Shown here piece by piece: positions 4,421-62,944 of a stretch of 64,000 nt of DNA. The stretch comes from Pelagomonas calceolata. Its lineage: Eukaryota. The stretch covers positions 3,348,001 through 3,412,000 of the forward strand of contig CAKKNE010000005.1 of the NCBI GenBank assembly GCA_918797485.1. Reading direction: 5' to 3'. The position numbers were made by a program, and so were the translations under genes. The notes under the pieces are model-generated. The model was not told the DNA's origin and did no database searches. It saw nothing but the letters and a program-made list of their open reading frames with translations. Every line of letters begins with the position of its first letter. The first letter of the stretch is position 1.

Positions 4421-4675
4421 GGTGATGGGCAGCCCACTCGGCTCGTTGTCGCCGGGCAGCCGGGGAGCAACGAATATGCGACGAATGAGGTACGAGCGCT
4501 CTCCTCGCAGCCCGCCTCGCCTCCTCGTCGCCTCGGCGGCCGGCAGAGCAGCCCCAATCACGACGATCTGCGGAGTTAGAATGGGGCGGGGCGCCGCTCG
4601 CCGAAAAGTTACGCTCGTTCGAACGTGTGGGCTAGTGCTCCTCGGCCCGGCGAGACGTCGCACGGCGTTGTGCGA

Positions 4676-4700
4676 GCTAGCGGCCAGTAAGACACTAGCA
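4676..4700 (-). promoter_or_regulatory. copy of 25-bp upstream motif (consensus TGCTAGTGTCTTACAGGCCGCTAGC on the named strand)
   Basis: Plus strand GCTAGCGGCCAGTAAGACACTAGCA, 1 mismatch, in a divergent intergenic region. Confidence 0.65.
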
Positions 4701-4983
4701 AGGATGCAGGCACAGGCTGCGGATTTTTGCGAATAGCGGTGCAACCGCATGGCTAGGCCCTTGCCTAGAGGCTCGTGGTGAAGTTCGAAGGAGGCCTGCG
4801 CACGGTGAGCGCAGCGCGACCTCGTGCCGCGCGCTGGGAGCTGTCAGAGCAGAGCCTGAGAGCTGTCAGAGCAGCCGCCGCGGGGCGCCCCGAAAGCGCG
4901 GCGCTGGCCGCAAGGAAGCAAAAAGCGCGCTGGAGGTTCCCGTCCTCCTCCAGCCTAATCTAAACCCCGGTGAATAAATAGTC

Positions 4984-8637: not shown

Positions 8638-10275
8638 TCAGTCGCTGTGCCGCAGCCGCAGCTCGACCGGCCGCCGCCCGTGCTTGAGCGTCGCCGCCGT
8701 GTGCGCGTGGGACAGGTACCGCTCGCCGTTGACGCCCAATACGACGTCGCCGGCCCGCACGCCCGCCGCCGCCGCTTGACCCGCGGCATCCACCGAGGTC
8801 ACGAGCGACACGGCCACGAGGCCGCCCCGCTCCTCGAGGCGAAAGCCGAGCGGCCCGCTCTCGAAGGTCACGTCGTACTCGTTCGCGTCGTCGGGCGACG
8901 GGAGCCCGACCTTGGTGGTGGATCCGTCGTCGAGCTCCTCGGCGAAGACCTTGGACCCTTTACCATTGAACGCAGGGCCGCGCGCGCGCGTCACCTGGGG
9001 CGGCTTCGTCGGCGACGGCTTCAGCGCGTCGTCGATGACGATCTGCTGGGGCCGTCGAAATTTTAACAAAGTCGGCCGCGGCAGCGCGGGCAGGTCCCGG
9101 ACCACAGATTCGTAGGCCGGCGCGCTAGTCCCGTTCAGCGCTATAACCACGTCGCCCACTCTGACACCAGCTTTGGACGCCTGGCCGTCCTCGGCCACGC
9201 GCGTGACGCAGGGCGCGCCGGCGGCGTCGCGGTCGACGGTGAGGCCCAGCGGGCCGGGCCCGAACGACGCCTCGAGGACCTCGGGCTCCGGCGGCTTCCG
9301 TTTCGGCGTCGGCGGCGAGTCCGGCGGCGGCGGCGGCGCGGGCGGCGGCGGTGCCGTCTCCGGCGCGTCCTGGGCGGCCTCTGGCTCGGTGGCCGGCGGC
9401 GGCGCGCCTCCAAAGGCCGCGGACTTCTCAGGGAGCGGCGGCGGCGGCGGCGAGGCACCGCGCATCGCGTCGCGCGCGGCTTCATCGGCGCCGGCCGCGG
9501 ACGCGTCGCCGCCGAAGCGCCGCACCGTCAGCCGCAGCGGCCGCGGCGCGCGCGCGAACAGGGCCACGACCTCGTCGTAGTCGGTGGCTGGCCGCCCGTT
9601 CAGCGCAACCACATAATCGCCCACGCGGACGCCGGCCGAGTGGGCCGGCCCGTTCGTGACGACTTTGGTCACGAGCGCCATGGAACCGTTGCCCTGGATG
9701 GGCGACGTGACGCCGGGCGGCGGCAATGCTCTAGTTAACGATGCCCCTAGCGAGGGCGTGCGTAGAGCCACATCAAAATCGCGCGCGAAGCCGTCGTCGG
9801 GCTTCGGTGGAGGTTCTGGTGTGGCCGGCATACTAATAGGAGGCGGGCTCTTGGACTTGCGTCGCTGTAGCGCCATCTTCGCAACTTGCGCCTGGAGCTG
9901 CTCTCGGTAGTACGACGCCTGCTTCGTCCGATACAGGACCTCAATATCGCTATTCTCAATCGTGTGCGTCTCGAAGAAGGTTCTGAGTTGCTTGTTCCCT
10001 CCTAACAACATGGCTAACAAATTGGCCTCGGTCCAGTTGTCCATGGTTAAACTTCGTGTCACGCTCACTTTCACGCCCAGGCCCCGGTGGCGGCCCGCGC
10101 ACTGGATGCAGTGCAAGCTTCCATGCTGGACGTCGGCCCAGTCCGGCTCGGCAGCTCTACAGTCCAAACACAAGTCGTTGCCCGGTACACACCTAATCTT
10201 CTCGATGGCGTTCGGCGGCAGCGGCTGGGCCGGCGGGCTGCGCGAGGCGCGGGGCCGCCCCTTCGTTGTGGCCAT
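8638..10275 (-). CDS. ArfGAP + three PDZ-domain protein
   Basis: CLDC-x16-CIQCAGRHR ArfGAP zinc finger and three PDZ-like units (GPLG...A..AGVR.GD.V.A.NG). Confidence 0.88.
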   Translation of the reverse strand: MATTKGRPRASRSPPAQPLPPNAIEKIRCVPGNDLCLDCRAAEPDWADVQHGSLHCIQCAGRHRGLGVKVSVTRSLTMDNWTEANLLAMLLGGNKQLRTFFETHTIENSDIEVLYRTKQASYYREQLQAQVAKMALQRRKSKSPPPISMPATPEPPPKPDDGFARDFDVALRTPSLGASLTRALPPPGVTSPIQGNGSMALVTKVVTNGPAHSAGVRVGDYVVALNGRPATDYDEVVALFARAPRPLRLTVRRFGGDASAAGADEAARDAMRGASPPPPPLPEKSAAFGGAPPPATEPEAAQDAPETAPPPPAPPPPPDSPPTPKRKPPEPEVLEASFGPGPLGLTVDRDAAGAPCVTRVAEDGQASKAGVRVGDVVIALNGTSAPAYESVVRDLPALPRPTLLKFRRPQQIVIDDALKPSPTKPPQVTRARGPAFNGKGSKVFAEELDDGSTTKVGLPSPDDANEYDVTFESGPLGFRLEERGGLVAVSLVTSVDAAGQAAAAGVRAGDVVLGVNGERYLSHAHTAATLKHGRRPVELRLRHSD

Positions 10276-10657
10276 TCCTGCCACGGCGACGGCTTGCCGC
10301 GTCTCTATCCGATAAATGGGCTAATGCACCTCCTCTTGTGTTTGGCCTAGGCTGCGAGCGTCGATGGCGTAGGGCTGCGGCGTTTATAGTGATGGTTGTC
10401 CGCTGCACAACGCACCACTTTTGCAGACCCCAATGCCCCCTCAAGGGGTGAAACTACCGAGCAAAAGTGCCGGTGCAAGAAGCTAGCGTGCAGGTTACAC
10501 ACTAGATTTTAGATACAGCTCGTATCAGAGAGGCAGTAACATGATAAGCGAGGCAGTCGAGCCGTCGGCTCCTCCCGGAGAACCGAGGGAGCGAGAGAGA
10601 GAATGAATAGATAGTTAAATATAGGATTCCATTCGCGCCGCCGCCGCGTACGTCGAC

Positions 10658-11067
10658 CTAGAGAAGCTTGAAGGTCTTGCAGAGGCGCTGCTGCTTGAGG
10701 GCCCGCTGGTCGGCCTCGTCGTCCGTCGCGTTCATGCGCTTCGTGACCAGGTCGAGGGCGATGTGCTCGTGCGTGCCGGCCACCGCCAGCACGTGCACCG
10801 CGACCGACCTTTTTTGCCCGATGCGGTGGACGCGACCAATCGCCTGGCGGAACGCAGCAATGTCCAGCAGAGGCTCAAAGAAGACGGCTCGCGACGCTTG
10901 CGTTAAATTGAGACCGACGCCTCCCGCGGCGACCGTCGTCACCAGAACAGTCCAATCCGCGGCAATCGCCTTGTCCCGCTTCGCGCGAGAAGCCGCGCCC
11001 GTGAACGACGCCGTCGCGACGTCTGCAGCTTCCAGCGCGGCCACGACGAGCGGCACGCTTTCCGCCT
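10658..11067 (-). pseudogene. headless duplicate of the 3' end (HelicaseC) of the neighbouring SNF2 gene
   Basis: 135 codons differ from 14989-15398 by only 5 amino acids. Homology extends through the 3' UTR (10608 vs 14937). No homologous 5' part is present. Confidence 0.8.
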
Positions 11068-12175
11068 CAGACCGTCCGTCGCCAAGCGAGCGTGGCCGAT
11101 TGGGCCACTCACCCATTTACATCGTCCGTCGCCCTCTCGACGCCGGCGCCGCCTAAGACGCCGCCGACAACTCAAGCACCGCCGCCTCGGCGCCAGCTCT
11201 CCGCTGGTGAGGGTAGTTGTAGGCCTCCCGCGACGCTATATGACATTTCCCTTCCTGATGGTGCAGGGCGCGCGTTGCTGCGTCGCGACGTCCCCAGGGG
11301 TTCTACGTGTCGAGGGCGTCCGCTACGACGCCGCCGAACGCCTTCTCCGGCTCCTAGCTTGTGCTGTAGGCAAACGGCGCTGTACGAGATTATGAGGATG
11401 GGCCCCAATCGGCGCCCGAGGATGCGTAGCTCGTCCGCCGCGGTGGTGCGGACGTCTGTCGGTTGTCGGGAGGCCATCGACGGGCTCGGCGGCCGGCGCC
11501 GGCCGCCGCTGATGGTGGTGCAGCCCCATTGGCAAAATGGTTGTCAACGCTGCGCAAAGCTAGTAAAACACTACGCTAGCTGCGGGGATCGACCGCGAGA
11601 AGGTCCCTGCGCACGCCTGCAAGCGCTGGGCAGCCAAGGCAGCCATTTGAGCACCAAAAGGAGGTCCCGAATACCCGCGTCCGAGTCACTCTAGAGTCTT
11701 TACGCCGCTGCCGCGCACAAAAATAACTTCACACGCCGAGAGTGGCCACACCCAAAAAAAACACCACCACAGCCTCCACACCACACGGATCTCGTTCTGA
11801 GCGGTCCTAGAGTGTACCGACTCGGCTGCGACCGCGGCGGCGGCCGCGCGGGCCCGCGTCGCCGTCCAGCACCGGAGGAACAAAGCCATGGGGCTCCCTG
11901 TACCGGTGCTGGGCGGCGCGCGGCGACGGCGCGGGCGCGGCGCGACTCCCGAGGCTGTGGCGGCGGCCCAGCGCTCGGAGGCGCGTCGCGTGCGGCGGTG
12001 ATGCTTGCGGCGGCGGCACGACGGGGACGCGCCGATAAGGCGTCGTCGATTTTTACGAGGAGCGGCGCAGGTCGCACCGCAGACACGCCCGACCACGCGA
12101 AGGCGGTCCCAGTAGACGCCGTCGCCCGCAAGACGCCGCGCCGACGCACCGCGCTCATTGTCGTGCCACCTAGCC

Positions 12176-14887
12176 ATGGGTAGCAGCAAGAAGCCGAGGG
12201 GGTCAAAGGCCGACCTAAAAGAAGCCGACCGGGAGTCGCGGTGCCTCGCCTTGCTCGAGGAGGTCAAGACCGCGACGCCGTTCCCGGACGGCCCGGACGA
12301 CCTGAAGAACAAGTCGTCGAAGTGGACGAACGTCGACGCCACGAACGTCCACAACATCAAGAAGATCATCGCGACGCTCACGCTCGCGGACGTGCCGACG
12401 GACGGCACATTTAGGCAGGACGGCGGCAAGGGCACCGACAGAGGTTGGATCGGCACCTACGTGCGGTTCCTGATCAACGACCTTGCGACGCAGAAGCGCA
12501 AGGCCAAGGACAAGCTCGACAAGGAGGAGAGGAAGAAGCGCGGCGAGTGCGACCTGCTCTTCGCGGACCTCGACCAGCCGGCGAGGGAGGCCGCGTGGCG
12601 GGCCGTCCTCTTCAAAGACGGAAAAGTGACGATGGGGATAAGGACCTTCGAGGCGCGGGCCGGGAACGCGAACAACTGCCAAGTCTTCTGGAAAGCCCTC
12701 AAGGAGGAGGAGAAAGCCGCGACGGTCTCCAAGGCCAAGGCCGACGGCGAGGTGCGAGAGATGACGCGCGAGGTCAAGCTGCCCGACGCCTTGGTGCCGG
12801 GCCAGGAGGACGACGGCGCGATGCCCTTCGGCGCGGGCGGCGGCGTGATGTCGGGGGCCTGGTTGATCGGCGACCTCAAGGACAAGTACATCATCGGCGT
12901 CGTCGAAAAGGCCGCCGCGCGCCGCGGCGTGTCTCTGGAGGACATGGGCGCGGACTGGGCGCGTGCTCTGTTGAAAATAAAGCGCGCGCTGGAGATGAAG
13001 CTGCGCCGCGTCGGCATGACGACGAATGCACGGTGCGTGACGACCGCCCTGACCACTGGGAGGGACTTCACCCTGCTCGGGGTGCGGGCGAGCGAGCGCG
13101 CGCTGGTGCGGCTGGTCGCAAGACTGCGCGAAGCGCCGACGCGCGACGCGCGGGACGTCGTCGCGCTCCGGGATTGGAACCGCGGCGACGCGCGGGCGTG
13201 CCTCACGGCCTGCGGCGACGCGCCGCGCGTCGGCTTCGGCGCGGCGGCCGGCGGCGTTTTAGGAGGCGGCGCGGCGTCGCGCGGCTGGCTTCAATCGGGT
13301 CGGGTCGGCGCGGCGAGACTGAGCGCCATGGCTGTTTCCGATGAAGCGCCGGCGTCGTTGGGCGACGCCTACCAGGGCTACGACTGGGCGCGGGCGGTTG
13401 TGGAGAGCGCCTCGAAGTCTAGTTCCGCGTCGCGCGAGCCGCTCGTGGTGATGACGGACACTGGCTCTGAGGTCTCTCTGGATCTCAGAAGCCCGACCTT
13501 CCTGGCGGACTACGCGCGGCTCTTCTCTCGGAACCTCGGCGAGGTTCCAGCGATCAACGCCGCTTTAGATAAGCTCGGGCTCCACGAGACGCCGGGGGGC
13601 GAAGGCGGGCTGTGCTTGCTGGATTGGGGTCTGATGGCGTTCGACCCGCTGACGGGCAAGGGCGTGGCTGGACCTTTCATCGAGACGTGCGAGGACATCG
13701 ACGCCGAGGAGTCGAAGAAGAAGGAGATAGGGGCCCAGGGCAAGTTCTACGCCCCGAAGATTTTGCATCTCGCTCTGCAAAAGGCGATTCTGTCGGGGAA
13801 GCTCCACTTCGAGCGCGACATGCTGACCCTCTTCTACTGCATCTTTGGGAAGCTCTTCTTCGCCTTGCTCTTCTACGCGGGCCGCATCACGATGCTCAAG
13901 GCGCGGGCCATGGGCTTCGACCCGACGCTGGTCCCTCTGGAGCTGCCGTGCGAGGACCTCCCGATGGTGGACCCCTCGATCGCGAAGCGCTTCCCGAACG
14001 GCATCGTCATCGAGTCGAGCGACCACCTGCTCCCGATCCTCCACGCGACGAACGACAAGTTCTTCGACGAGGGCAAGTGCGTCCTCTGGGCGCTGGCCTT
14101 CGCCGCCTACTACGGCGCCGACCACCCGCTCGCGCGGGCCGCGCTCGCCGCGGTCGGCGCGCGCAAGGACGACCACGAGCGCGCCGCGTCGCGCGTCGCG
14201 GCGTGCAAGAAGGCGATCGACGCGCTCGCGACGGGCGGCGGCTCGTCGGCGCGGTCCCGGACCGCCGCCCCGGCACTGCCGCCGCCGCCGCCGCCCGTGA
14301 TGAAGCGCTGCGGTGGGTGTGCGCCCTGCCGCAGAAAAGACGGCTCCCCCTGCAACAACCCGGTCCCGCGCGGGCCGGTGCAAGGCCTCGCGGCGACGGA
14401 CGGCGCGGCGGCGGCGGCGCCTTTCCTCAAGTTCCCGTCGCTCGAAGCCGCTCTCGATGCGGCGAAGACGCCGCTCACGTTCCAGATCCGGTTCGCGGTT
14501 CCCGCCACGGGCCCTGGCGAGCCGCCCATGACCAAGTGGTACTCGATCGGCGACTTCGCTCCTGTGATGAATGTGCTCTCGAGCTACAGAAATTGGGATG
14601 CTGTTAGATCGAACCACTCATGGGTCCTCGAGTCGGAGACGTGCCGCGCCATGGAGGCCGCCGCGTGCGCGTCCTCCGCGATCTTCGCCGGCATGCGCAT
14701 CACGGAGATCGCGCCGCCGCATTCGGTCGCCCACGTGTTCGACCCGACAAAAGAGTGCAAGCACGACCAGACCTACACGATCTGGGCGGGCGTCGACTTC
14801 GAGATCATGCTGCCCGGCGGCCGCGTCATCTCGAAGTCCGAGTTCCTGCTCCAGGAGCTCGAGAAGTACATGGCGGCGCGCGCCTAG
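12176..14887 (+). CDS. orphan ~900-aa protein with CxxC-finger-like motif
   Basis: Long ORF with strong GC3 bias and a KRCGGCAPCRRKDGSPC motif. The segment ~13030-13325 may be an intron or a gene boundary. Confidence 0.7.
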   Translation: MGSSKKPRGSKADLKEADRESRCLALLEEVKTATPFPDGPDDLKNKSSKWTNVDATNVHNIKKIIATLTLADVPTDGTFRQDGGKGTDRGWIGTYVRFLINDLATQKRKAKDKLDKEERKKRGECDLLFADLDQPAREAAWRAVLFKDGKVTMGIRTFEARAGNANNCQVFWKALKEEEKAATVSKAKADGEVREMTREVKLPDALVPGQEDDGAMPFGAGGGVMSGAWLIGDLKDKYIIGVVEKAAARRGVSLEDMGADWARALLKIKRALEMKLRRVGMTTNARCVTTALTTGRDFTLLGVRASERALVRLVARLREAPTRDARDVVALRDWNRGDARACLTACGDAPRVGFGAAAGGVLGGGAASRGWLQSGRVGAARLSAMAVSDEAPASLGDAYQGYDWARAVVESASKSSSASREPLVVMTDTGSEVSLDLRSPTFLADYARLFSRNLGEVPAINAALDKLGLHETPGGEGGLCLLDWGLMAFDPLTGKGVAGPFIETCEDIDAEESKKKEIGAQGKFYAPKILHLALQKAILSGKLHFERDMLTLFYCIFGKLFFALLFYAGRITMLKARAMGFDPTLVPLELPCEDLPMVDPSIAKRFPNGIVIESSDHLLPILHATNDKFFDEGKCVLWALAFAAYYGADHPLARAALAAVGARKDDHERAASRVAACKKAIDALATGGGSSARSRTAAPALPPPPPPVMKRCGGCAPCRRKDGSPCNNPVPRGPVQGLAATDGAAAAAPFLKFPSLEAALDAAKTPLTFQIRFAVPATGPGEPPMTKWYSIGDFAPVMNVLSSYRNWDAVRSNHSWVLESETCRAMEAAACASSAIFAGMRITEIAPPHSVAHVFDPTKECKHDQTYTIWAGVDFEIMLPGGRVISKSEFLLQELEKYMAARA

Positions 14888-14988
14888 CTTGGGGCGCATG
14901 TGCTTCTGTTCTAAGTCAAGATTTCCTCAAAGTTTGTAGATAGTTAAATAGGATTACCATTCGCCCCGCCGCGTACATCCGAGTCGAC

Positions 14989-17900
14989 CTAGAGCAATTT
15001 AAAAGTCTTGCAGAGCCGCTGCTGCTTCAGGGCCCGTTGGTCGGCCTCATCGTCCGTCGCGTTCATGCGTTTCGTGACCAGGTCGAGGGCGATGTGCTCG
15101 TGCGTGCCGGCCACCGCCAGCACGTGGACCGCGACCGATCTTTTTTGCCCGATGCGGTGGACCCGACCAATCGCCTGGCGGAACGCGGCGAGGTCGAGGA
15201 GCGGCTCGAAGAAGACGGCTCGCGACGCCTGGGTCAAATTGAGACCTACGCCGCCCGCGGCGACAGTCGTCACGAGCACGGTCCAATCGCCGGCAATCGC
15301 CTTGTCTCGCTTCGCACGCGATGCCGCACCGGTGAACGACGCCGCGGCCACTCCGGCGGTTTCTAGGGCAGCAACTACGAGCGGCACGCTCTCGGCCTGG
15401 TCGCAGAAGACAATCGCCTTCCGGTCATCTTGCGTTACTAATCTCACGACCTGTGTGGAAGTAAAAATTTACGGTGCGTTCGTGCAAAATCATCGACGCA
15501 ACGCCTGCTCGATGACGTGGTGATGCCGGTTCCTCACCGCTCGACCGAGCCAGGACGGCCGCGTCATCGCCGAGAAATGAGCACCCGACGCACTGGTTGA
15601 TTTCCACACAGCTCGCGACTTCCTCGGCCTTGGCCTTGGCCGGTGCCAGGTAGGCCTCGTTGACTGCGGCCTTCTCCGCGGCGCGCCGCGCGGCTCTCTG
15701 TCGCGCGCGTGTCAGCGCGAAGTTGCGGACGGCCACGGACCAGCGCCCGCCCTGCGGCACATCCAATACATCGTCCTCGAGGTCCAACAGGTCCTCGGCG
15801 CAGAAGCGACCCTTGCACGCGGGGCACACGACCGACGCGAGCGTGCGGTGGGGCCGCGCCACGGAAATGGGCGGCACCTCGTCCTCGTAGTGGGAGAAGT
15901 CCGCGCCAGGAAAGACTTCTGTTGCGTCCTTGCCGTGTAACGCCTGGGCCGCCCGGTCCTCCTGCTCGCGCGACGCCAGGATCACCTTCGCGCGCGGGTC
16001 CTTGCCGTACTCGACGGATAAACGGACCTCCGGGCGCGAGTCACAGTACGGAGCAAACAATCTCTCCAGCGCCTCCGTGGCCCGTCGTTGATCGGCGTAG
16101 TTATGTAAACCGGAGGGGAAGCCGCCCGTGACCATGAGGTAGGGCCGGTCCCGGACGACGTCGTCGGCCTTGAGCTGGTCGTCGGGAACGGCGTACTGAA
16201 CGCCCTCCACGGTCTCGGAGGTGGACTTGCACCTCTCGAAGAGGCTCTCGACGCAATCGCCGCAGAACAGGTGCCCGCACGTCGCCGGCGCGCGCGGCGC
16301 CAAGCTCCCAACGTTCGTCCGCAAACAACACACGCAGCGCCGCTCCGTCCCGCGGCTCCGCAGGTTCTCGTCGAGGTCGCGGCGGAACGCGTGCAGGTCC
16401 TGCGTCGCGACCGTGTCGGCCGTGGCCTCGGCGTCCGGCCGCCGCGGCACGTTGACGGGCAATTTATCCAAATTCGAGGCGCCCGCGATGGAGTCGTGCT
16501 TGTGGCGCTCCGCGGGATCGACGCCCGCGCACAACCAATCCAGCGGCTTCAGCGCTTGCGCGGCGGCGTGGAGCCGGCACTCCGGCTGCTTCTTCGCCGC
16601 CAGCTTGTCGAAGAGGTCGCTCTTCACGTGGACGGCGCGGTCGTCGCGCGCTTCTAGTGGAGGCAGGGCGACCAAGGCGGCCCCGTCGCGCTCCGCGTTC
16701 TTCGAGTGGCGCACGACCAGAGGTTTGAGTAACGAGCACATGACCTCCGCCGTCGAGTTGAAGGGCGAGAGCCAGTTGTTGGCCAGGATGCAGCGGAAGT
16801 AGTTCAATGATAATAACTCGGGCGCCAATCTCAAAAAGACGAGCGGCCCCAACAAATCAAATAAGGAGTTCGTGACCGGCGTGCCCGTGACGCACCACCT
16901 ATGAGGCGCGTCGACCGCCGCCGTCACGGACACAGCTGGCGAGAAGTTAATGGCGTTCGCCGTGGGCCGGGCCGTCAAGTGCGCGTGGGGCTCATCCAAG
17001 CAGACGCGCCAGAACTCGACGTCGTCTCCTAGAGCACCCGCGGCGGCGTAGGCGCAAAGGATCAAATCAGCTTCCCGGGCGCCGCGCTGTCGTAACACGC
17101 CGTCCGTGGCCTGGAGGCCGTACTCGAGCACTTTTAATTGAGGCGCGCGGTGGCGGCACTCGCGCGCCCACTGGCTCAAGAGCGAGGGAGGCGCTATTAC
17201 GAGAGTGGCCTTGATACGTCTTCTAGACGCCGCGACCCATGCTACGGGTGCCGGGTGCGCCAGCGTCAGACATATAACCTCGAGCGTCTTGCCGAGGCCC
17301 ATGTCCTCCGCTAAAAAACCTCCCCGATGTTTCCGCGCGACGGGCGACCGGAAGTAGCACCGCACGTCTGCTTTAGCTCTCTGCTGGGCGCGTTCGGCCT
17401 CCGTGCCGCCGCCCTTGGGCCAGTCGTGCCGGAAGCGCGGCGCCGGCAGCGTGACGACGGCGAGGTCCTTCGAGAAACTCGACGAGAAGAGGTCCTCCAT
17501 GGATCTCGATGACGTCTCGCGCGCGACCAGCCACGCTATCGTTTCTCTCTGGTAGTCGCCTAATTCAACACCCTCCAGCAAACCGTCTCCATTTTTGGGG
17601 CCGCCCTCGGTCTCCAAGGCGTCGGCGAGCCCATCGCACGTCCTTAGTGACGACCACTTGGCCCTTTGTGCCCTAGGCGGCAGGTCGAGCCCACTGGTCT
17701 TGAGAGAGAGGGCTACGGTAGTGTCGGTGGCTCGTAGTACGCTGCCGACGGCGTCCTCGATGCCGGCGTGGCCGTCCGCGTAGTGGCCGCCGCGGTGCTC
17801 GACCATCGCCGCGTTGACCGTGGCCTCGGCAGAACAGGAGACGATGGTCTCGCCCTTTTCCGTCGCGGCCATGGCTTGTGGCGTCGCCGTCGCCGCGATG

Positions 17901-18454
17901 AGCTGGCCGCCGCCTGCTCTAAGGATCGAGTCCAGCGCCGGCGCCGCTTTTCTTAGCGCCGCGAGCCCGGCGCCTGACGCCGCGCGCCCGACTTCCAAGT
18001 GTTGGGCGTCCGCGTCGGCGATGACGCAGGCGCAATTGATCTTGGCCGTGCGGCCCTGGCCCAAAGGAGCCGCCTCGGCCTTGTCGTGGGCCCAGACGCG
18101 TGTTTGATACGACACCTCGGCAGCATGGCGGGCCGCGGTCGCGTCCTTGGCCTGCTGGAGCTTCTCGGCCTTCACCACAATCTCCTTCGGCGCCGTCGCC
18201 GGCTCGTGGACCAGCGGCGCCGCGGCGGCGTCGTCCAGGGCGTCCACATCGATGATGTCTCCTGCGGCCTCGGCCGCTCGGATGGCCTCGCGCGCGCGCG
18301 TCTCGGGGTCGACGACGTGGTCGATCTCGACTTGCTGCGAATCCCCTTCCGGCGTCACGACGCGCTCGAGCTCGTCCGGCTTCAGGCGCTTGTTCGCCGG
18401 CGTGCCGTCGCTCGGCTCGGGCTTGACGCGTTTTAGCGTGGTTGCTTCTTGCAT
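14989..18454 (-). CDS. SNF2-family (Rad5/Rad16-like) helicase with RING finger; one intron 15451-15619
   Basis: GGFLAEDMGLGKT, TLVIAPPSLLSQW, RVCLDEPH, RWCVTGTP, GVGLNLTQA and QAIGRVHRIGQ motifs. Splicing gives KAEE|VVRLVTQDDRKAIVF in frame. Confidence 0.9.
15451..15619 (-). mobile_element. introner intron (TIR + 8-bp TSD)
   Basis: TIR CTGTGTGGAA...TTCCACACAG (15451-15611). TSD GTCGCGAG/GTCGTGAG. The GT donor lies in the TSD and the AG comes from the TIR end. Confidence 0.9.
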
Positions 18455-18637
18455 CTTTTTGCCCCTCATGCTGTGGCAGGGCGGTTTTGCAGTGTGGAGC
18501 CGCGCAGTGGTGCTTTTGGGCTGGCGCGCGGCTGAGAGATCGTCTCCTTTGCAATATGCAGTGCTCGTACGGCTCTGGCAAAGCGCGCTGACGCCGCAGT
18601 GTGGCACACTGGTTCAAAACCAAGGAGAGCGGCGGCT

Positions 18638-23906: not shown

Positions 23907-24034
23907 TGGCGCTGCACGACCAGTGGCGCTTTGCAGCCGTTCGCAGCGGTCACAGAACGTATCAAAGAGCTGGCTATTGGATGCTACGAAGCGATTGGCG
24001 CATGGGTGTGTGCAATTGCTCGATTTTTGCACCA

Positions 24035-24059
24035 TGCTAGTGTCTTACAAGCCGCTAGC
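24035..24059 (+). promoter_or_regulatory. copy of 25-bp upstream motif
   Basis: TGCTAGTGTCTTACAAGCCGCTAGC, 1 mismatch. Confidence 0.65.
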
Positions 24060-24328
24060 GCGCAAGGCCCAGAGATGCCGTTAAAGATCGTCGGCAGGTC
24101 GCCGAGACGCGGTGATTGCAGACTTCTGTAAATCAGCCTCGTGAGGCCGCTCTCGATTGGCTGCTTGTCGGATGTGAATTGTAGAAACTTAAACTCCGCG
24201 GTTACGCGAGCAGCGATCGGCAAAACGCCGTCGTCGACTTAGAGGAGACTAGCTTCCTTGCTGCTTGACGCGCGGTTGCAGCTGAGCCATAACGAGTGCA
24301 TACAACAGCTGTACACCAAAGCTGCACG

Positions 24329-35143: not shown

Positions 35144-35251
35144 CTTGTCCCGCCGCAGTGGCCTTCTGGGGCAGCGCAGCGCTTGTGTGTTGCTGTGTGT
35201 TTGCCGCGCTGGCGGCGTGGGGCAGCCCGCAGCTGCAGCGCCTTTTTGGCT

Positions 35252-35276
35252 TGCTAGTGTCTTACAGGCCGCTAGC
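35252..35276 (+). promoter_or_regulatory. perfect copy of 25-bp upstream motif
   Basis: TGCTAGTGTCTTACAGGCCGCTAGC. Confidence 0.7.
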
Positions 35277-35454
35277 ACGCTCCCGGATTAATCTTAGTCT
35301 CTTCCTTTTGGCATTGTATTGCGCGCTTCGCGTATTGCGGGACGAGAGAGTACTCCACGACTTTTATCGAACGCGCAGACTCGGATCCCGCGACGCCTAC
35401 GACCTTGCAAGTTTTGCAACTTTAGACAAGACAACAAAAACCAATAATTCACAG

Positions 35455-37488: not shown

Positions 37489-37671
37489 GTGTTTGCAGTG
37501 CGGAGCACTGCTACCTGAGGGCTAATGCTGTTGCACTACGTCTGCTGAGCCTCTCAGGATGTTTGCGGCGCAGCAAACTGGATGGGTCGGTCGAGAACCA
37601 CGAGCACGCGACAATGCCAACCTGGCAACGTCTACACAAGCGATTGCTCTGCGCTGCCCGCCCTTGAGGCA

Positions 37672-37696
37672 GCTAGCGGCATGTAAGACACTAGCA
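37672..37696 (-). promoter_or_regulatory. copy of 25-bp upstream motif
   Basis: Plus strand GCTAGCGGCATGTAAGACACTAGCA, 1 mismatch. Confidence 0.65.
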
Positions 37697-39333
37697 AGCA
37701 TCGGAACACTCATGCAGCCGTTCGAGTATCGTTCCGTTCGCTAATGGTCCAAAGAGATCAATGGGACACTTCCTCGGGGCCGAAAAAAGACATAGTTTAA
37801 TTCGCGGCGACGACGCCGCCATGGGCCATGCCGGCTGCGCCAGTTTAATCCTGTCAATCCCTGCCAAACAGGTCTCCCTGGGGTCGCCTAGGGTCGGTAC
37901 TTTACACGTGCACGCGCCTACACCGCATACGCCGCCGCTTCAAGCATTTTTGGCCCAATTCTCTCAACAGCCCGCGCAGATTAGCAATAATAGGCCATGG
38001 TTTGCTTCCAGGGCTCTCCGAGAGCACTAGGCTGCTGCATCGACGGCGTATGCGGTACAGGCGACTACCCACCACCAGACCTGCCCCGAGGGGCCTCCAG
38101 GAGCTGATCTGCCCCCGAAAAAAGTAAACAATTTGGGCCCGATGGCGCCCCGTCCCCGTAAAAAACGTCAATTACCCGAGGCCCCCCAGGAATCGTAATA
38201 GCGGTCTCGTCGGACCCCATACTACCCCAACGATAGTCAATTACAAGTATATGACATCTACACCACGAGAAGGGTACTTTTGGCTGCCCACGCTTGGGAC
38301 GTGAACATCTTGATCTGGACCCCGCGCAAGTCGGTCGTTCATGAAACAAATGATCGCGTTATGGTCCACGGTGAGGGTACACGGGCTGATGGACGCAGGT
38401 CCAGCTCTAAGCCCGAATTAGCGAGATCGTGGGGGCCGCGAGACCGACGACCCGCTCCGAGCATCGTGGGGTCTCGAGCAATGTAGTATTGGCTCAGGCC
38501 GGTTAGCTGGCCCGTCCCGGAACCGAAGCGCCTGAAACGCAAATTTATTTTATAACTCACGGGTCTGGGGCCTTTCTGATGCTCCGTCTCCGCACCGTCG
38601 TCCGCGGAGAACGGGCAAGTCGATCGATCGTGAATAGAACAACGGTGTTATGGTCCATCTGGGGGGTGGCGTCGCCGATACCCGCGGGTCCAGGTTTTGA
38701 GCCCCCCTTCATGAAACGTGGGGTTGCGAAGATGACGAATCGCGCCGCTCTAACGGACCACCTACCATAGCTCATAGTCGCTGAGGCGGACTGGATGGCA
38801 TCTACCGACAACAAACGGATAAAAACGAACATAAACTCGGGAGTTGTCTAGTAGAATTCTTCTCCCGCCCTCCGAGCGCGGGCCGTCGGCTCCGGTTCCG
38901 TCGAGTGTGGATGAAAACTGAGCTGGAGTTGATATAATGTACCATCTGGACGGTGGATGGCGGCGTCAAGCGCTGGTGTATTTTGGCGAGCCGCAAGACT
39001 CATCCGTGAATGTCGCGAGCGGTGCCTTCCGGGAGGCGAGAGGGTATGTTCCCGGGCCGCTACTCTGAAATATTTGGTCTCGGCGAACGACTAGGATGTG
39101 TTCTGAATTTTGGTCATTCTTTTGACGCTATCCAAGCGTATCTTTGAATTTGCTAGTGTGTCGATATACGCTAGCTCCGGTCGGCTCTTTTTGGGCGGAG
39201 CCGAATAACCTCGCACCTTGGTACATGGGACTACTTCCGGCGCGCTCGCGCAGTCATAGACGCCATCGACGCGATATATATATATATATATCAAATACTT
39301 ATCGGGCCTTTGCCGCGCGGTCCGTCGAGACTC

Positions 39334-39501
39334 CTATCCCACGACCGTGCCCTGAGCCGTCGCCACGGGCGCCGCGGCCGGCACCGCCACCGTGAAGTAC
39401 TGGCCCGGGCCGACCCCTGGCGGGACGGTCACCTGGACATTTTGGCCGTTGTGTGGCGCCGACACAAGCGTCCCCGGGCCGGCGCCGGCGGGGACCATGA
39501 C
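39334..39501 (-). pseudogene. headless 3' exon of a host gene abutting the left TIR
   Basis: 55 codons plus TAG: VMVPAGAGPGTLVSAPHNGQNVQVTVPPGVGPGQYFTVAVP..., with an internally repeated VP.G..PG motif. It is below the ORF-track cut-off. Confidence 0.7.
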
Positions 39502-39560
39502 CTATTTTTTAGCTATTAATTTAATCCCAGGTTTTAGTCGCGGCTCGCTCGCGCCTCGCT
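39502..39560 (+). repeat. left TIR (59 bp)
   Basis: CTATTTTTTAGCTATTAATTTAATCCCAGGTTTTAGTCGCGGCTCGCTCGCGCCTCGCT. Confidence 0.95.
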
Positions 39561-40373
39561 AAGACAAAATCGCGTCTTGCTCGGCCCGTCTTGCACCTCC
39601 GAGGCCTGGGCCGCGCGACTGGCTCTACGTGGGCCGTGACTTGCCCCTCGTAACTTACAGCGCTCAAAACGGTGCCGGAGTCGCTCGTTCTCGAGGAGAG
39701 CCCAAAATCGTGACGCGCCGCGCTCGCCGCTGGACGAAAGCGGGGCTGGTCCGAGGCGCCCCGGCGGGGCCCCAGGGTCATATGCATCGGCGCTGAGCGA
39801 AAACAGGAAAAGTTATCGAACCCCGACGCAAATATTCGCGGCGGACCGCGGACGCGTTTTTTTCCGACGCGGCTCACGCGGCAGGAACTGCACGAGCGAT
39901 GAAGGTGGCGGTACCACGCGAAGGTTTGGACGTCGGCCAGCCCTCTGACAGCTCGTGAGGGTCGGCGGTGTCGTAGGGTGCTTTTCCTCTCGCGCCCCGG
40001 CGCGTGCGAGCGCGAGAAACGGGTCTGGCGGCGCGCGGGTGGCAATTTCGAGGACGCGAGGCGCGGCACGTCGCCGTCGTGATGGAACCGCGTCGTTTGC
40101 CCGCCTCGGCCGAGTACGTCGAGGCGTGATGGGCCCTGCGCGGGGCCATGACGCGCAGCGGTTTTCGGGCGACGGCGTCGGAGGCGTATTGGTGGTCTCC
40201 GAGGCTCAAAGCGTGCCGCGGGGTCAGGTGGGCTACGGAGAGCCGCCGCGCGCCGCCCGGCGAGGCGGCCAGGCTCCGGTCTCGGATATGGCTCCCTCGG
40301 CTCGCCCGGGTAGCCTTCCAAGTAACAATCTTACACCAAGACTACAAACACGCTCCCAGAATAAGAGGGTCGT

Positions 40374-46319: not shown

Positions 46320-46958
46320 GTTAATCACATTTTGTTTCTCGGACAGCTGTCGGCGCGGGACACCTGTGTGGGGAGGGAGGCGAGCGGGCGCGCGTGTGGT
46401 CCGCTTCTCCAGGAAGGCGCCGGCACCGCTCCGTCGCACGATCACCGCCACCGCGGCGCCCGAACGCGCGCAGCGCCGTCGACGCCCTCGCAAATGCGGC
46501 CGGCGCCGACCCGCGGCCCGGCCGCGGCCCTCGGCGCGTCCGGCTTGCACCCCGGACCGTCGGCGCGGCCCGCGCTCGCTCGTTTCTATCCCGGCACCGG
46601 TCCCCGACGCCGCCGCGTGCCACCGGCGTCGTGACGCCGCACGGCGCGCGACGAAAGCCCGAGTCGGCGCCGTCGGCCGTTTCGAGGCGACACGAGCTCG
46701 CGCGCAGCCGGTGAACCGCCCGCGGGCCGCGCCGACCATGTGGCCAACCGACGCGACCGGTCCTGGGGTCGCGCGACGCCCGTCGTAGCCCCCCGACGCC
46801 GCGGCAGCGCCTCAAACCGGGACGGCTCGTTTGCGGCCGCCGCGGCCGCACAGCTCGAACCGCTTTGGTCAAGGCTCGTCAGGAGGTCACAAAAGACGAT
46901 CCCAATCGCTCATGCCTCTACGATGCGCTGCGGCCGCGTACCGGACGTTTTTGTTCCA

Positions 46959-47017
46959 AGCGAGGCGCGAGCGAGCCGCGACTAAAACCTGGGATTAAAT
47001 TAATAGCTAAAAAATAG
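46959..47017 (-). repeat. right TIR (59 bp)
   Basis: Exact reverse complement of 39502-39560. Confidence 0.95.
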
Positions 47018-47286
47018 GCAAGCCAAGGGTTTCATAAAATGAACGCGCCGGGCGTGAGGTCACACGCGACTTTTCAGCGAGGCGGGTAGCCGGCCGCGGT
47101 ACCGACGAGGCCGCTAGCGTGCCTAGTATCGACACGGAGACCAAGAGTTAACTCGAGCTAAAAAAATTTGCTTACAAAACCCGTCACGGTTTCTTAAGTG
47201 ATGACCGGAGGGAACTATCTGACTCGGAGATGATGGTGGTTAGACCCTACGGCGACGAGAGGGTCAATGCAGCGATCTACAACGCC

Positions 47287-47946: not shown

Positions 47947-48169
47947 CGTGCCTGCGGGGCGTCCAGACGTCTCTCCGCGATTTGATTATAACGCGGCGCG
48001 GTCGTCTCGGCGGCAGAGCCTCAGGGTGTTCTCACTTGGCTCAGTCGGTTAGATTCGATCGAGCGGCAGAAAACGCAGGACGGGGGATTGTCAGAGTTGT
48101 TTACGCGGCGTTTACTAACGAAGTCAAGCTACCTGGTTCGCGGTAGCGGCAAATTCCCTGTTTTGCGTG

Positions 48170-48194
48170 GCTAGCGGCCTGTAAGACACTAGCA
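48170..48194 (-). promoter_or_regulatory. perfect copy of 25-bp upstream motif
   Basis: Plus strand GCTAGCGGCCTGTAAGACACTAGCA, followed by CCTGAG repeats. Confidence 0.7.
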
Positions 48195-48262
48195 AGACGC
48201 AGCCTGAGCCTGAGCCAGTAGAAGCACAGCTCTATTAGCGGGGGAGAGAGAGGGATAGATAA

Positions 48263-60428: not shown

Positions 60429-60712
60429 CGACGACTTAGCAGTGACACTTGTTCCGGCCCGCCGTGCGCTACGGCAGCGTTGTGGCGGCCACGTATTGGC
60501 TGCACCGGCCACGTCTAGGCGCGGCGGTGGCGACAGCACGGCCACGTGCACTGCCACTGCAAAGCTTGCAGCTCGCCTCACAGGTCTGCAAGCTGCAGTT
60601 CCGCTGCGGCCACGCTATACGCAGTCGCAGGAATACTGGAGCCGTCTCTACGAGAGCTGTGAGGCTTCGTAGGGCCGCTCCGCGAGTGCTTACGACACGG
60701 AGAGCAAGCAGA

Positions 60713-60737
60713 GCTAGCGGCCTGTAAGACACTAGCA
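60713..60737 (-). promoter_or_regulatory. perfect copy of 25-bp upstream motif
   Basis: Plus strand GCTAGCGGCCTGTAAGACACTAGCA. Confidence 0.7.
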
Positions 60738-60738
60738 A

Positions 60739-61006: not shown

Positions 61007-62944
61007 TCAGATGAGCGCCGTCTGGGTCTGGCAGCGGTCGCCCATGTAGCCCTCGAAGCACTCGCACTCGCCGGACGAGTAGTCGCACTTGCCGCGGCGG
61101 CCGCACTCGAACGAGTTGTAGTCGGCCTGGACCGTCTCCTTGACGCTCGAGAGGATGTCCGGGTGCGCGCTTAGTTGAGGGGCGCTGCTGCCCAGGAGAT
61201 ATACTTTTGTCCCGTCGGCGATTGTCGCCGCGGTCGTTCCGACTTGACCGCGGAGTACAGTAAGATCGTTAGTAGAGACGCCGGTCACCTTTAGGACCTC
61301 GCTGCCGATTAGGATGTAATCGTTGGCAGCCGCACCAAGACCGCCAGTGTTCGGATCCACCGCAATAGTTGTATCACTAGCAGTATAGCCAGCACCGTTA
61401 TCGACTTCTGACTCGGCCAAGAGATATACTTTCGCCCCATCGGCGTGCGCAACAGCCGTCGTGCCGTCTTGAGCGCGGATTACTGTCAATTTGTTAGTAG
61501 CAACGTTAGTCACTACCATAACCTCGCTGCCGATCCGGATGTAAGAATTAACAACCGCACCAAGACCGCCAGTGTTCAAAGTCACGTCAATATCTGTATC
61601 ACTAACAGCACCCCCATTAGTAGCAGCATTACCGGTAGCAATAGTCGTCTCAGTCGGTGGAGGTGCCTTGAAGTATTCCGCCGCCGTCGAGGCCACCAAG
61701 GCGGACTTGAGCTGGACCGGGTCCGACAGCTGGGGCGTGCAGCCGGAGCCGCACTTGTCGGCCTCGACCTCCAGGAGGTACTGGGGGCCCGCGACGGACG
61801 ACCCGGTGAACTCGACCTCGCACTTCACGGACGGGTAGTACGTGCTGACGCCCGCGGCCCATTCGTAGGTGCAGGTCACGTCGCAGTCATCGATGACGTA
61901 GTTCGGGAGCTCGTGCAGAGCCGTCTTCACGGCCAGCGACGTCGTCAACGGCGCGGTGGCGCGGCCGGCGGCCACGAATAAATCGGCTTCCACCTGTTGG
62001 TACGCGAGACCAGTGAATGGGCTCGTGGCTCCGGTGTCAACCAGGTACTGAACGCCAGCTCCGATGGCAAGAAGATCATCCCTTGTCGCCGCGGATATCG
62101 CTCCGAGGTCATACAGCCCCTGCACGGCGGCCGTCGCGATCGACGTGACGATGATGGGCTTCGTCGTGTAGGACTGGTTGAGCTTCGACGTGAAGGTGAG
62201 GGCGAACGACTTGTCGAAGAGGTCGGCGAAGCACGCGTCGGTGATGGTCTCGTCGCTAGCTGCGCCGCACTGCGTCGCGCCGTCCTTCGCGATGCCGTCG
62301 CCGAGCGCGCCGGCGCCGATGAGCGTCACGGTCTGCGTCTGGTTCTTGCGCGCCTGGTCCAGGTTGTTGCGCTCGTCCATGACGTCGTTGCCCTGGGGGC
62401 ACATGCGGCGCGAGCAGTCGATGTCCGTGTAGCCCGGCTCGCAGACGCACATGCGCACCTTGCCCGAGTCCCAGTTGGGCATCTGGGGGACCTTGGCGGC
62501 GCCGACGCCGATGCCATTGGCAACTATGTTGCCGTTGGCATCGGGGACGCCGGCGTAGTCGCCGTAGACGGTGCCGAAGGTCACGTCCTCGGCGTAGACG
62601 CACTTGCCGTGGCCCGAGCAGTCGTTCGGGCAGGTCTGGAGGCCGCAGCCGCGGCCCGCGTAGCCCTCGAAGCACTCGCAGTCGCCCGAGCCGCGGTCGC
62701 AGACGCCGACGCCGGCGCACTCGGCGTACGTGTGGATGTTGCCCGTCTTGTCGGGGCCGGCCGACCAGGCGACCTGGTAGGGGCAGCGGCGGTCCGAGCA
62801 GTCGCCGCCGTCCTGGTCGCCCATGACCCAGTCCTGGTAGCACGTGCACGTGTCGTCGGCGCCGCACGTGCCGTGGCCGCTGCACGAGTTCGGGCAGGCG
62901 GCGTGCGCCGTGGTGGCCGCGAGGGCGAGGAGGGCGAGCTTCAT
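61007..62944 (-). CDS. tubular mastigoneme (Ocm1/Sig-type) EGF-like protein
   Basis: Signal peptide, CPNSCSGHGTC, GDCSDRRCP..AW, H.YAEC.G.G.CDR, CPNDCSGHG, CSRRMCP.GND and terminal ECGRRGKCDY..G.C.CFEGY.G. Confidence 0.85.
   Translation of the reverse strand: MKLALLALAATTAHAACPNSCSGHGTCGADDTCTCYQDWVMGDQDGGDCSDRRCPYQVAWSAGPDKTGNIHTYAECAGVGVCDRGSGDCECFEGYAGRGCGLQTCPNDCSGHGKCVYAEDVTFGTVYGDYAGVPDANGNIVANGIGVGAAKVPQMPNWDSGKVRMCVCEPGYTDIDCSRRMCPQGNDVMDERNNLDQARKNQTQTVTLIGAGALGDGIAKDGATQCGAASDETITDACFADLFDKSFALTFTSKLNQSYTTKPIIVTSIATAAVQGLYDLGAISAATRDDLLAIGAGVQYLVDTGATSPFTGLAYQQVEADLFVAAGRATAPLTTSLAVKTALHELPNYVIDDCDVTCTYEWAAGVSTYYPSVKCEVEFTGSSVAGPQYLLEVEADKCGSGCTPQLSDPVQLKSALVASTAAEYFKAPPPTETTIATGNAATNGGAVSDTDIDVTLNTGGLGAVVNSYIRIGSEVMVVTNVATNKLTVIRAQDGTTAVAHADGAKVYLLAESEVDNGAGYTASDTTIAVDPNTGGLGAAANDYILIGSEVLKVTGVSTNDLTVLRGQVGTTAATIADGTKVYLLGSSAPQLSAHPDILSSVKETVQADYNSFECGRRGKCDYSSGECECFEGYMGDRCQTQTALI

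What the first reader, a model, noticed from the sequence alone, without database searches (positions are those of the whole stretch)
10608..15398. SNF2 3' end duplicated under purifying selection around a 3.9-kb orphan-gene insert
Seen: 10608-11067 and 14937-15398 are direct copies including the 3' UTR. A manual count gives roughly 40 synonymous against 5 amino-acid changes over 135 codons, yet the left copy has no 5' part. Homology stops at AG|GC in both copies (TCTGAG|GCG vs GACCAG|GCC). Inference: either integration of a DNA piece carrying a diverged allele's 3' end that restored the target gene, as genomic islands do, or alternative last exons via a GC-AG splice. A dead local duplicate would not show this synonymous bias.
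Basis: partly seen in the sequence, partly recalled or inferred. Interest (0 to 1): 0.7.

Follow-up and report, generated by a model that had tools for sequence, protein, structure and literature searches.

The report
Orphan cassette splits two helicase alleles
In an ocean alga, the end of a DNA-helicase gene is present twice around an unknown, fast-changing gene; both copies match gene versions found in wild cells, so they were likely joined by an unequal exchange between two parental chromosomes rather than kept by selection on the broken copy.

Summary
In detail: 10608-11067 and 14937-15398 are 86% identical, with 42 synonymous and 5 amino-acid-changing codons of 135 (dN/dS 0.013-0.039). 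The window is from the alga Pelagomonas calceolata. The paradox dissolves. Both copies are ordinary alleles: all ten residue states at the five differing sites occur in intact SNF2 proteins from ocean samples, and wild DNA pieces differ from either copy as much as the copies differ from each other. The silent bias therefore most likely arose while both were working genes. Raw RNA shows no splice into the left copy, which is read from a start inside the insert. DNA depth is even, arguing against a mis-join. The insert is a cassette: an expressed 903-aa orphan gene, a conserved hairpin and a divergent second transcript. Relatives lie beside other genes without any SNF2 tail, so it is not a dedicated target-restoring island. 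Its protein forms block-mosaic variants that change almost without amino-acid constraint (dN/dS 0.7-1.5 by method) yet stay open. Best reading: an unequal exchange between two haplotypes, homologous on one side and joined over 4 bases on the other. The orphan family, possibly a conflict gene, is the more interesting part.

The parts
14989..18469 (-). Intact SNF2-family helicase gene (SNF2 domain, RING-like stretch, Helicase_C); exon 1 18469-15620, exon 2 15450-14989; 1103 aa
   Evidence: Pfam PF00176 E 7e-28; PF00271 on the duplicated end; spliced product equals P0107, named as a Pelagomonas calceolata protein
14937..15398 (-). Right copy: working 3' end of SNF2 (codons 969-1103 and 3' UTR); allele type T13-G15-A18
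   Evidence: RNA depth 26-42 on the minus strand
10608..11067 (-). Left copy: displaced SNF2 3' end of another allele (A13-D15-T18), no frameshift or stop; transcribed from inside the insert
   Evidence: residues 1-45 identical to 3 intact SNF2 proteins from other samples; RNA depth 27-48
10658..11116 (-). 152-aa ORF P0001: 17 insert-derived residues plus the displaced Helicase_C end; five ATGs lie upstream in the transcript, so translation is doubtful
11064..11067 (-). Non-homologous junction with 4-base microhomology AGGC (15395-15398 in the right copy)
   Evidence: bridged by a DNA contig 10766-11259 at full depth
11068..14936 (.). The cassette (insert): GC 0.673, like its neighbours (0.669, 0.696)
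11120..11653 (-). Divergent second transcript of the cassette, starting near 11653; 72% like L001, whose 123-aa ORF is broken here by frameshifts and a stop; further copies are expressed in the same culture
11836..11945 (+). Long hairpin upstream of the orphan ORF, kept in L001 and L002
   Evidence: z -4.75 (window), -3.78 (L002), -2.81 (L001); no covariation available from 3 rows
12176..14887 (+). 903-aa orphan gene P0002, expressed, tail-to-tail with SNF2; member of a fast-changing, block-mosaic family
14888..14936 (+). Right edge: likeness to L002 ends at 14901, 14 bases after the stop; first mates begin at 14915 and 14921 (likely the 3' end of the P0002 RNA); 35 bases of unknown origin before the right copy
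15451..15619 (-). 169-base intron made by an introner-like element (inverted ends CTGTGTGGAA, 8-base target duplication with one mismatch), 52 bases upstream of the breakpoint; probably unrelated
   Evidence: very high DNA depth here shows it is a genome-wide repeat
8638..10275 (-). Downstream neighbour, ArfGAP with three PDZ domains

Best explanation
The two SNF2 ends match allele types found in intact genes in the wild, and they were likely brought onto one chromosome by an unequal exchange between two haplotypes at a movable orphan-gene cassette. Step 1 (inferred): in one haplotype a copy of the cassette came to lie just behind the SNF2 3' UTR, tail to tail. Step 2 (inferred): in a transient diploid, or with incoming DNA, the far end of the cassette was joined over 4 shared bases to codon 969 of SNF2 on a second haplotype. 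This could be by break repair, a circle that re-integrated, or both cassette ends landing on different homologues; steps 1 and 2 may be one event. Result (shown): intact SNF2 with one allele's end, the cassette, the other allele's end, then ArfGAP. The silent bias would be purifying selection from before the event. The left copy is now read from a start inside the cassette (shown) but probably makes no needed protein (inferred). The cassette gene changes fast at the protein level while staying open (shown); its likeliest role is in a biological conflict, such as defence, recognition or drive (inferred, low confidence).
For: (1) Of 42 SNF2 proteins examined, 34 had the C-terminal part and 31 had it attached to the normal upstream residues. 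Of these 31, 15 are left-type (A-D/E-T), 7 right-type (T-G-A, one being this genome's own) and 9 a more distant cluster. All ten states at the 5 differing sites occur, so the left copy has no private amino-acid change, and 3 are identical to it over residues 1-45. (2) Wild DNA-level pieces: 9 of 163 differences from the left copy where left and right differ at 29; 23 of 144 from left where left and right differ at 21; 18 of 215 from right where left and right differ at 15. The left-right distance is thus within the range of wild variants. (3) One wild contig runs from the SNF2 upstream exon into left-type sequence with no insert; it switches between 11045 and 11059, not at the AG|GC site. (4) No splice joint in raw RNA. 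(5) DNA contigs of run X3 have depth 435-585 over flanks, both copies and insert (8 listed pieces) and bridge 10608, 11067 and 15398. (6) L002 shares the cassette to 14901 and then runs to a PWWP-like gene; L001 shares it from 11230 with no SNF2 in the 375 bases beyond. A paralogue, P0070, lies on a different long contig of the same species. (7) The species is reported homozygous or haploid in culture and to hold 18 of 23 meiosis genes (PMC9481584, passages; 10.1101/2024.10.30.620910, passages).
Against: No chromosome with cassette plus SNF2 but without the duplicate (the predicted donor) was seen, and the order of events is not shown. The insert-free joint is a single contig at depth 3 laid at 83% likeness, which the tool warns may come from another organism. 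Two of the three wild pieces have depth under 5, and only 24 of 468 pieces were listed. Wild allele evidence is mostly at protein level and from metagenome assemblies that may mix strains or cryptic species. L001 and L002 have an identical ORF (0 differences in 700 codons), so they are probably one locus, and the different right neighbour rests on one metagenome contig. The 14901-14937 junction is not bridged by any listed DNA piece (2993 pieces not shown). A 56-base identical run (18 codons; permutation p 0.012 over all codons, 0.13 within codons 70-135) would also fit later crossovers. Positive selection on the orphan gene is not established: NG86 1.53 and LWL85 1.37, but YN00 0.71 and ML 0.76.
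Confidence: 0.62

Rival explanations
1. The cassette inserted with an identical 460-base target duplication; later crossovers or gene conversion with cassette-free chromosomes replaced parts of each copy with other alleles.
For: Same end product. A 56-base identical run at 10740-10795 could be an unreplaced remnant (p 0.012). Wild alleles are mosaics of the diagnostic residues, so recombination in this stretch is common.
Against: Differences start at codon 1 and continue into the UTR, right up to both junctions, where a crossover has little anchor. It needs at least two further events. The identical run is not significant within the less diverged 3' half (p 0.13).
Confidence: 0.17
2. The cassette is a target-restoring integrative element that carries the SNF2 tail as its attachment site, as the first reader proposed from genomic islands.
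For: The geometry fits: gene restored, old end displaced, empty-type allele seen.
Against: L001 and L002 carry no SNF2 sequence on the sides they cover. No recombinase was recognised by Pfam or fold search (low-confidence model, so inconclusive). A 460-base, 86% repeat is unlike a site-specific core (own knowledge).
Confidence: 0.08
3. The left copy is kept by selection as a separate 152-aa Helicase_C protein expressed from the cassette's second promoter.
For: It is transcribed at depth similar to the right copy, is open, has an in-frame ATG at 11116, and is on record as a predicted protein.
Against: Five ATGs precede it in the transcript. It starts behind the first strand of the domain (own knowledge of the fold). 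Of 14 other listed cluster members, none has its 17-residue leader; 12 have the normal SNF2 upstream residues. Standing alleles explain the pattern without it.
Confidence: 0.06
4. Alternative last exons through a GC-AG splice from 15397 to 11065.
For: AG|GC at both breakpoints; both copies are transcribed in the same direction.
Against: 0 of 9 listed joints have reads from the raw RNA run at depth 47.5 (about 6% of the run read, threshold 3 reads). The acceptor would be GAG, with no pyrimidine tract. Minus-strand RNA is continuous from about 11650 through the left copy.
Confidence: 0.03
5. Assembly mis-join of two haplotypes.
For: The 14901-14937 junction is not bridged by a listed DNA piece, and no long reads were laid.
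Against: Even depth, 435-585, in a run from another study than the two flagged as possible sources, with three junctions bridged. The species is reported homozygous or haploid.
Confidence: 0.03

Closest known systems
Insertion with long target duplication (restriction-modification genes; PMC2853133, passages read)
   Same: A gene with no mobile-element enzyme beside it sits between long direct repeats that overlap a gene end, and an empty-type allele exists.
   Different: Eukaryote. The repeat is 460 bases and 86% identical, and the copies are two alleles, whereas the bacterial cases in the passages seen are near-identical repeats of about 46 bases. The cargo is not a restriction system.
Homology-facilitated illegitimate recombination and C-terminal displacement at T6SS/Rhs loci (PMC5361080, passages read)
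   Same: One end homologous, one end illegitimate; the new 3' part restores the gene and the old 3' part is pushed downstream as an orphan.
   Different: There the displaced part is a toxin tip or immunity gene and the DNA arrives by horizontal transfer. Here it is a housekeeping helicase end, and the donor is probably a homologous chromosome.
Hybrid element insertion / flanking duplications at P elements and Ac (PMC3744419, passages read; Preston, Sved and Engels 1996 seen only as a reference title, mechanism recalled)
   Same: A duplication that runs from the element's edge to a new junction nearby; if the junction is on the homologue, the two copies are allelic (recalled).
   Different: Needs a cut-and-paste transposon with terminal inverted repeats and a transposase; none was found here.
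wtf meiotic-driver family of fission yeast (10.1101/461004, abstract and outline read)
   Same: Lineage-restricted multi-locus family with rapid amino-acid change, patchwork between members and movement without an own transposase.
   Different: No sequence or structural link was found; poison-antidote action and drive were not tested; the protein is larger and the alga has no described spore stage (own knowledge).

Membership tests
SNF2-family helicase (target gene) | SNF2-related N domain and Helicase_C domain | tested here: met
   PF00176 E 7e-28 on exon 1; PF00271 E 4e-7 on the duplicated end
Insertion with long target duplication | Direct repeat over 30 bases, insert under 20 kb | tested here: met
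   460 bases and 3.9 kb
Insertion with long target duplication | Empty-site allele with one copy of the repeat | tested here: inconclusive
   Intact alleles of both types exist and one RNA-run contig skips the insert, but no DNA contig showing SNF2 next to ArfGAP was obtained
Insertion with long target duplication | Restriction-modification cargo | tested here: inconclusive
   No Pfam family for P0002 or relatives; fold searches gave no clear match on a weak model
Insertion with long target duplication | Near-identical repeats copied from the target | tested here: not met
   86% identical, 47 of 135 codons differ
Target-restoring integrative element (genomic island) | Element carries the target's 3' end at other loci | tested here: not met
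   No SNF2 sequence in L001 (375 bases left of the shared part) or L002 (2.2 kb right of it); probably one independent locus
Target-restoring integrative element (genomic island) | Encodes a tyrosine or serine recombinase | tested here: inconclusive
   No Pfam hit, no PDB sequence hit under E 0.05, no clear fold match
Cut-and-paste DNA transposon (hybrid element insertion) | Terminal inverted repeats | tested here: not met
   None of the 25 longest inverted pairs shown (of 529) joins the two ends of 11068-14936
Cut-and-paste DNA transposon (hybrid element insertion) | Transposase | tested here: inconclusive
   No family or fold recognised
Helitron or other rolling-circle element | HUH/Rep protein | tested here: inconclusive
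   No Pfam or fold hit
Helitron or other rolling-circle element | Subterminal 3' hairpin | tested here: inconclusive
   A 7-pair stem at the L002 end is imperfect in the window and no better than shuffles (z 0.26 and -0.98)
Retrocopy or retroelement | Poly(A) tail at the insert or duplicate end | tested here: not met
   No A-run after 14901, 14937 or 10608
Ribozyme-bearing RNA element | Known ribozyme family | tested here: inconclusive
   Rfam scans gave only chance-level matches (E 0.2-4)
Alternative last exon | RNA joint 15397 to 11065 | tested here: not met
   0 of 9 listed joints carry raw RNA reads
wtf-like killer meiotic driver | Multi-locus, mosaic, fast amino-acid change | tested here: met
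   Blocks of 100% beside 44-58% identity; 258 non-synonymous vs 47 synonymous codons; paralogue on another contig
wtf-like killer meiotic driver | Poison-antidote products and biased transmission | not testable with these tools
   Needs crosses or expression tests
Introner element (15451-15611) | Short repeat with inverted ends and 8-base target duplication that forms an intron | tested here: met
   introner-length introns reported for this species (PMC9481584); the 8-base duplication as a family trait is recalled

The most novel reading that the evidence does not exclude
P0002 defines a new kind of selfish, movable gene cassette in pelagophyte algae. It has no known transposase, spreads between loci and homologous chromosomes by provoking or exploiting breaks in the diploid phase, leaves long allelic duplications of the host gene end, and diversifies by block shuffling like a poison-antidote or anti-virus system, with the divergent small transcript as its partner.
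Probability: 0.13. Interest if true: 0.8.

Novelty: new variant of a known kind. Interest (0 to 1): 0.45.

Why it matters
The duplicate is a frozen record that two haplotypes about 14% apart met and recombined in an abundant open-ocean alga whose cultures are reported haploid and whose sex is inferred from gene content. It also warns that low dN/dS in a truncated duplicate need not mean current function when alleles are this diverse. The cassette gene is an uncharacterised, expressed, shuffling family whose dN/dS is 20 to 60 times that of the neighbouring SNF2 alleles by the same method, a candidate for defence or drive that can be tested. A search for 'Pelagomonas calceolata' with 'SNF2' found 0 papers; one with 'transposable element' listed 5, none on this by title or abstract start.

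Tried and rejected
No whole genome was held, so copy number of the cassette in this assembly was not counted. Pfam: no family above cut-off for P0002, 4 close relatives and 25 of 26 further hits; the exception, P0094, is a repeat protein judged a false hit. ESM Atlas: no usable hit for P0002 or P0084. AlphaFold: P0002 mean pLDDT 38 (not searched); compact relative P0084 mean 61, with no Foldseek match at E 0.001 in PDB or viral models and best VIA Z 5.8 over 43 residues; this shows neither a new fold nor absence of a known one. PDB sequence search: 2 weak hits, E 0.06 and 1.1. No relative in viral contigs or prokaryote genomes. The third protein search returned only its own query. Rfam: chance matches only. 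A pair count on the upstream hairpin was mis-registered by 3 columns; the slid version pairs 97% of cells with no compensatory change, so it says nothing. Positive selection on P0002 was first suggested by NG86 (1.55) and then weakened by codon-frequency-aware methods (0.71, 0.76); it is not claimed. An overlapping antisense gene as the cause of that pattern was considered; all three antisense frames hold stops (5, 12, 26). The joint table showed 15 of 53 rows, dominated by introner reads, so it is not used against splicing. The small second ORF is not on record by exact look-up (0 of 3). Earlier notes: none for this place or these sequences. Two papers could not be opened; no supplements were read, and supplementary notes on repeats in PMC9481584 may bear on whether the cassette is annotated.
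Full report
OBSERVATION. The repeat is real: 10608-11067 and 14937-15398 align at 86.1% over 467 columns, E 2e-154. On the minus strand both encode the last 135 residues of an SNF2 helicase, the stop and about 50 bases of UTR. 42 codons differ silently and 5 change the residue; NG86 gives dS 0.61, dN 0.022, ratio 0.036, p 8e-24, and four methods give 0.013-0.039. If half the divergence had accrued neutrally on a dead left copy, about 62 non-synonymous differences would be expected against 6.5 seen. Likeness ends at AG|GC, with 4 shared bases.

ORGANISM AND GENES. Removing one 169-base intron (15451-15619, an introner-like repeat) gives a 1103-aa protein identical to P0107, which its source names as a Pelagomonas calceolata protein. 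The break is at residue 969. ArfGAP-PDZ follows downstream. Published assemblies of this species are described as homozygous (PMC9481584, passages) or haploid (10.1101/2024.10.30.620910, passages); the first also reports 18 of 23 meiosis genes.

NOT A MIS-JOIN, AS FAR AS TESTED. In DNA run X3, from another study than the two runs flagged as possible sources, the 8 listed contig pieces have depth 435-585 across flanks, both copies and insert, and bridge 10608, 11067 and 15398. The junction 14901-14937 is not bridged by a listed piece; 2993 pieces were not shown. No long reads were laid.

NOT A SPLICE. With the noisy repeats left out, the joint table lists 9 joints; none has reads from the raw RNA run X23 (about 6% of the run read, threshold 3 reads), while depth at the left junction bin is 47.5. 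Minus-strand RNA begins near 11653, inside the insert, and runs through the left copy; the orphan gene is read on the plus strand, with first mates starting at 14915 and 14921. Five ATGs precede the one that would give the 152-aa product.

BOTH COPIES ARE WILD ALLELES. I examined 42 SNF2 proteins from the collections; 8 lacked the C-terminal part and were dropped; of 34, 31 have it attached to the normal upstream residues. At positions 13/15/18, 12 are A-D-T and 3 A-E-T (left type), 7 T-G-A (right type, including this genome's own), and 9 belong to a more distant cluster. Position 36 is G/A/C/S in 16/6/5/3 and position 69 L/I in 15/15. Every residue of either copy is therefore standing variation, and three intact proteins equal the left copy over residues 1-45. 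At DNA level, three of the 24 listed pieces (of 468) fall in the duplicate: 9/163 from left (left-right 29/163), 23/144 from left (21/144) and 18/215 from right (15/215); two of them have depth under 5. One contig of run X15 (depth 3) goes from the upstream exon into left-type sequence with no insert, switching 6-20 bases away from the AG|GC site, as an intact allele would; the tool warns such joints can come from other organisms. The silent bias is thus best read as selection before the two ends met.

THE INSERT IS A CASSETTE FOUND ELSEWHERE. P0002 has 7 other clusters at 65-70% identity, and a profile finds 36 proteins, down to about 25% identity, including P0070 on another long contig of the same species. 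Of 238 candidate stretches in metagenome contigs, 2 were confirmed. L002 matches 11495-14901 and then runs to a PWWP-like gene; L001 matches from 11230 with no SNF2 beyond. Their ORFs are identical, so they probably show the two sides of one other locus. RNA and DNA reads show further copies of the 11.1-12.1 kb part in culture, one with L001-like letters. A long hairpin upstream of the ORF is kept in all three. I found no terminal inverted repeats among the longest pairs, no poly(A), and no recognisable recombinase, transposase or fold (weak models, so absence is not shown).

THE ORPHAN GENE CHANGES FAST. Against L002, 258 of 893 codons change the residue and 47 are silent; differences at codon positions 1/2/3 are 167/162/113; upstream non-coding DNA differs at 7.8%. 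dN/dS is 1.53 (NG86) and 1.37 (LWL85), with block-bootstrap ranges above 1, but 0.71 (YN00) and 0.76 (ML). Positive selection is therefore not proven. The frame is nonetheless kept: about 13 stops would be expected from 442 random changes and none is present. Variants are patchworks, with 50-residue blocks at 100% beside blocks at 44-58%.

MECHANISM. Shown: the anatomy, the allelic nature of the copies, the transcripts, and the cassette's presence beside other genes. Inferred: the cassette first sat behind SNF2 on one haplotype, or landed during the same event, and its far end was joined over 4 bases to codon 969 of another haplotype, so that the gene stayed whole and the second allele's end was left behind. 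Break repair between homologues, a re-integrated circle and a hybrid insertion all give this product and cannot be told apart here (0.62 together). Duplication first with later allele replacement (0.17), a dedicated target-restoring element (0.08), a selected mini-protein (0.06), splicing (0.03) and mis-join (0.03) are the rivals.

COMPARISON. It is not a member of these as defined: the repeats are allelic, and no restriction system, integrase or inverted ends were found. The cassette gene behaves like wtf genes in its evolution (10.1101/461004, abstract), with no evidence yet of drive.

VERDICT. Real; the selection paradox is explained by standing allelic diversity; a new variant of a known kind of rearrangement. 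The uncharacterised cassette family deserves follow-up. Interest 0.45.

Noticed in passing
window 39501-39572 and 46946-47018: A 73-base inverted repeat (94.5%) brackets about 7.4 kb whose 7 tested ORFs have no Pfam family; possibly a large element with terminal inverted repeats, or two copies of a small repeat.
   Followed up: partly
window 15451-15619: Introner-like intron with inverted ends and an 8-base target duplication; similar ends recur at 4667-4708, 24028-24064, 35249-35280, 37671-37701, 48160-48196 and 60711-60738.
   Followed up: partly
window 61192-61608: Two 192-base copies at 74% inside a gene region with teneurin-like EGF domains; an internal protein repeat.
   Followed up: partly
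window 11819-12107: At several positions (for example 11819-11853, 12081, 12092) DNA and RNA runs show mostly or only another letter than the window; either a second cassette copy dominates the reads or the assembly has local errors here.
   Followed up: no
P0002 residues about 700-740 (window 14270-14390): A poly-proline plus CxxCxxC-like segment is present in P0002 and P0005 but absent from 6 of 7 other clusters: a swappable module.
   Followed up: no
SNF2 codons 981-986 (window 15343-15360): Two deep residue haplotypes segregate here with local dS near 1.1; the right type resembles the more distant cluster P0015, hinting at old polymorphism or introgression.
   Followed up: partly
P0050: A metagenome protein with an unrelated N-terminus fused just before the KAIVFCDQ motif: intron read-through or a second truncated SNF2 end.
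   Followed up: no
L002 4485-5641: Right neighbour of the cassette at the other locus is a convergent gene with a weak PWWP match (E 4e-4, under the cut-off).
   Followed up: partly
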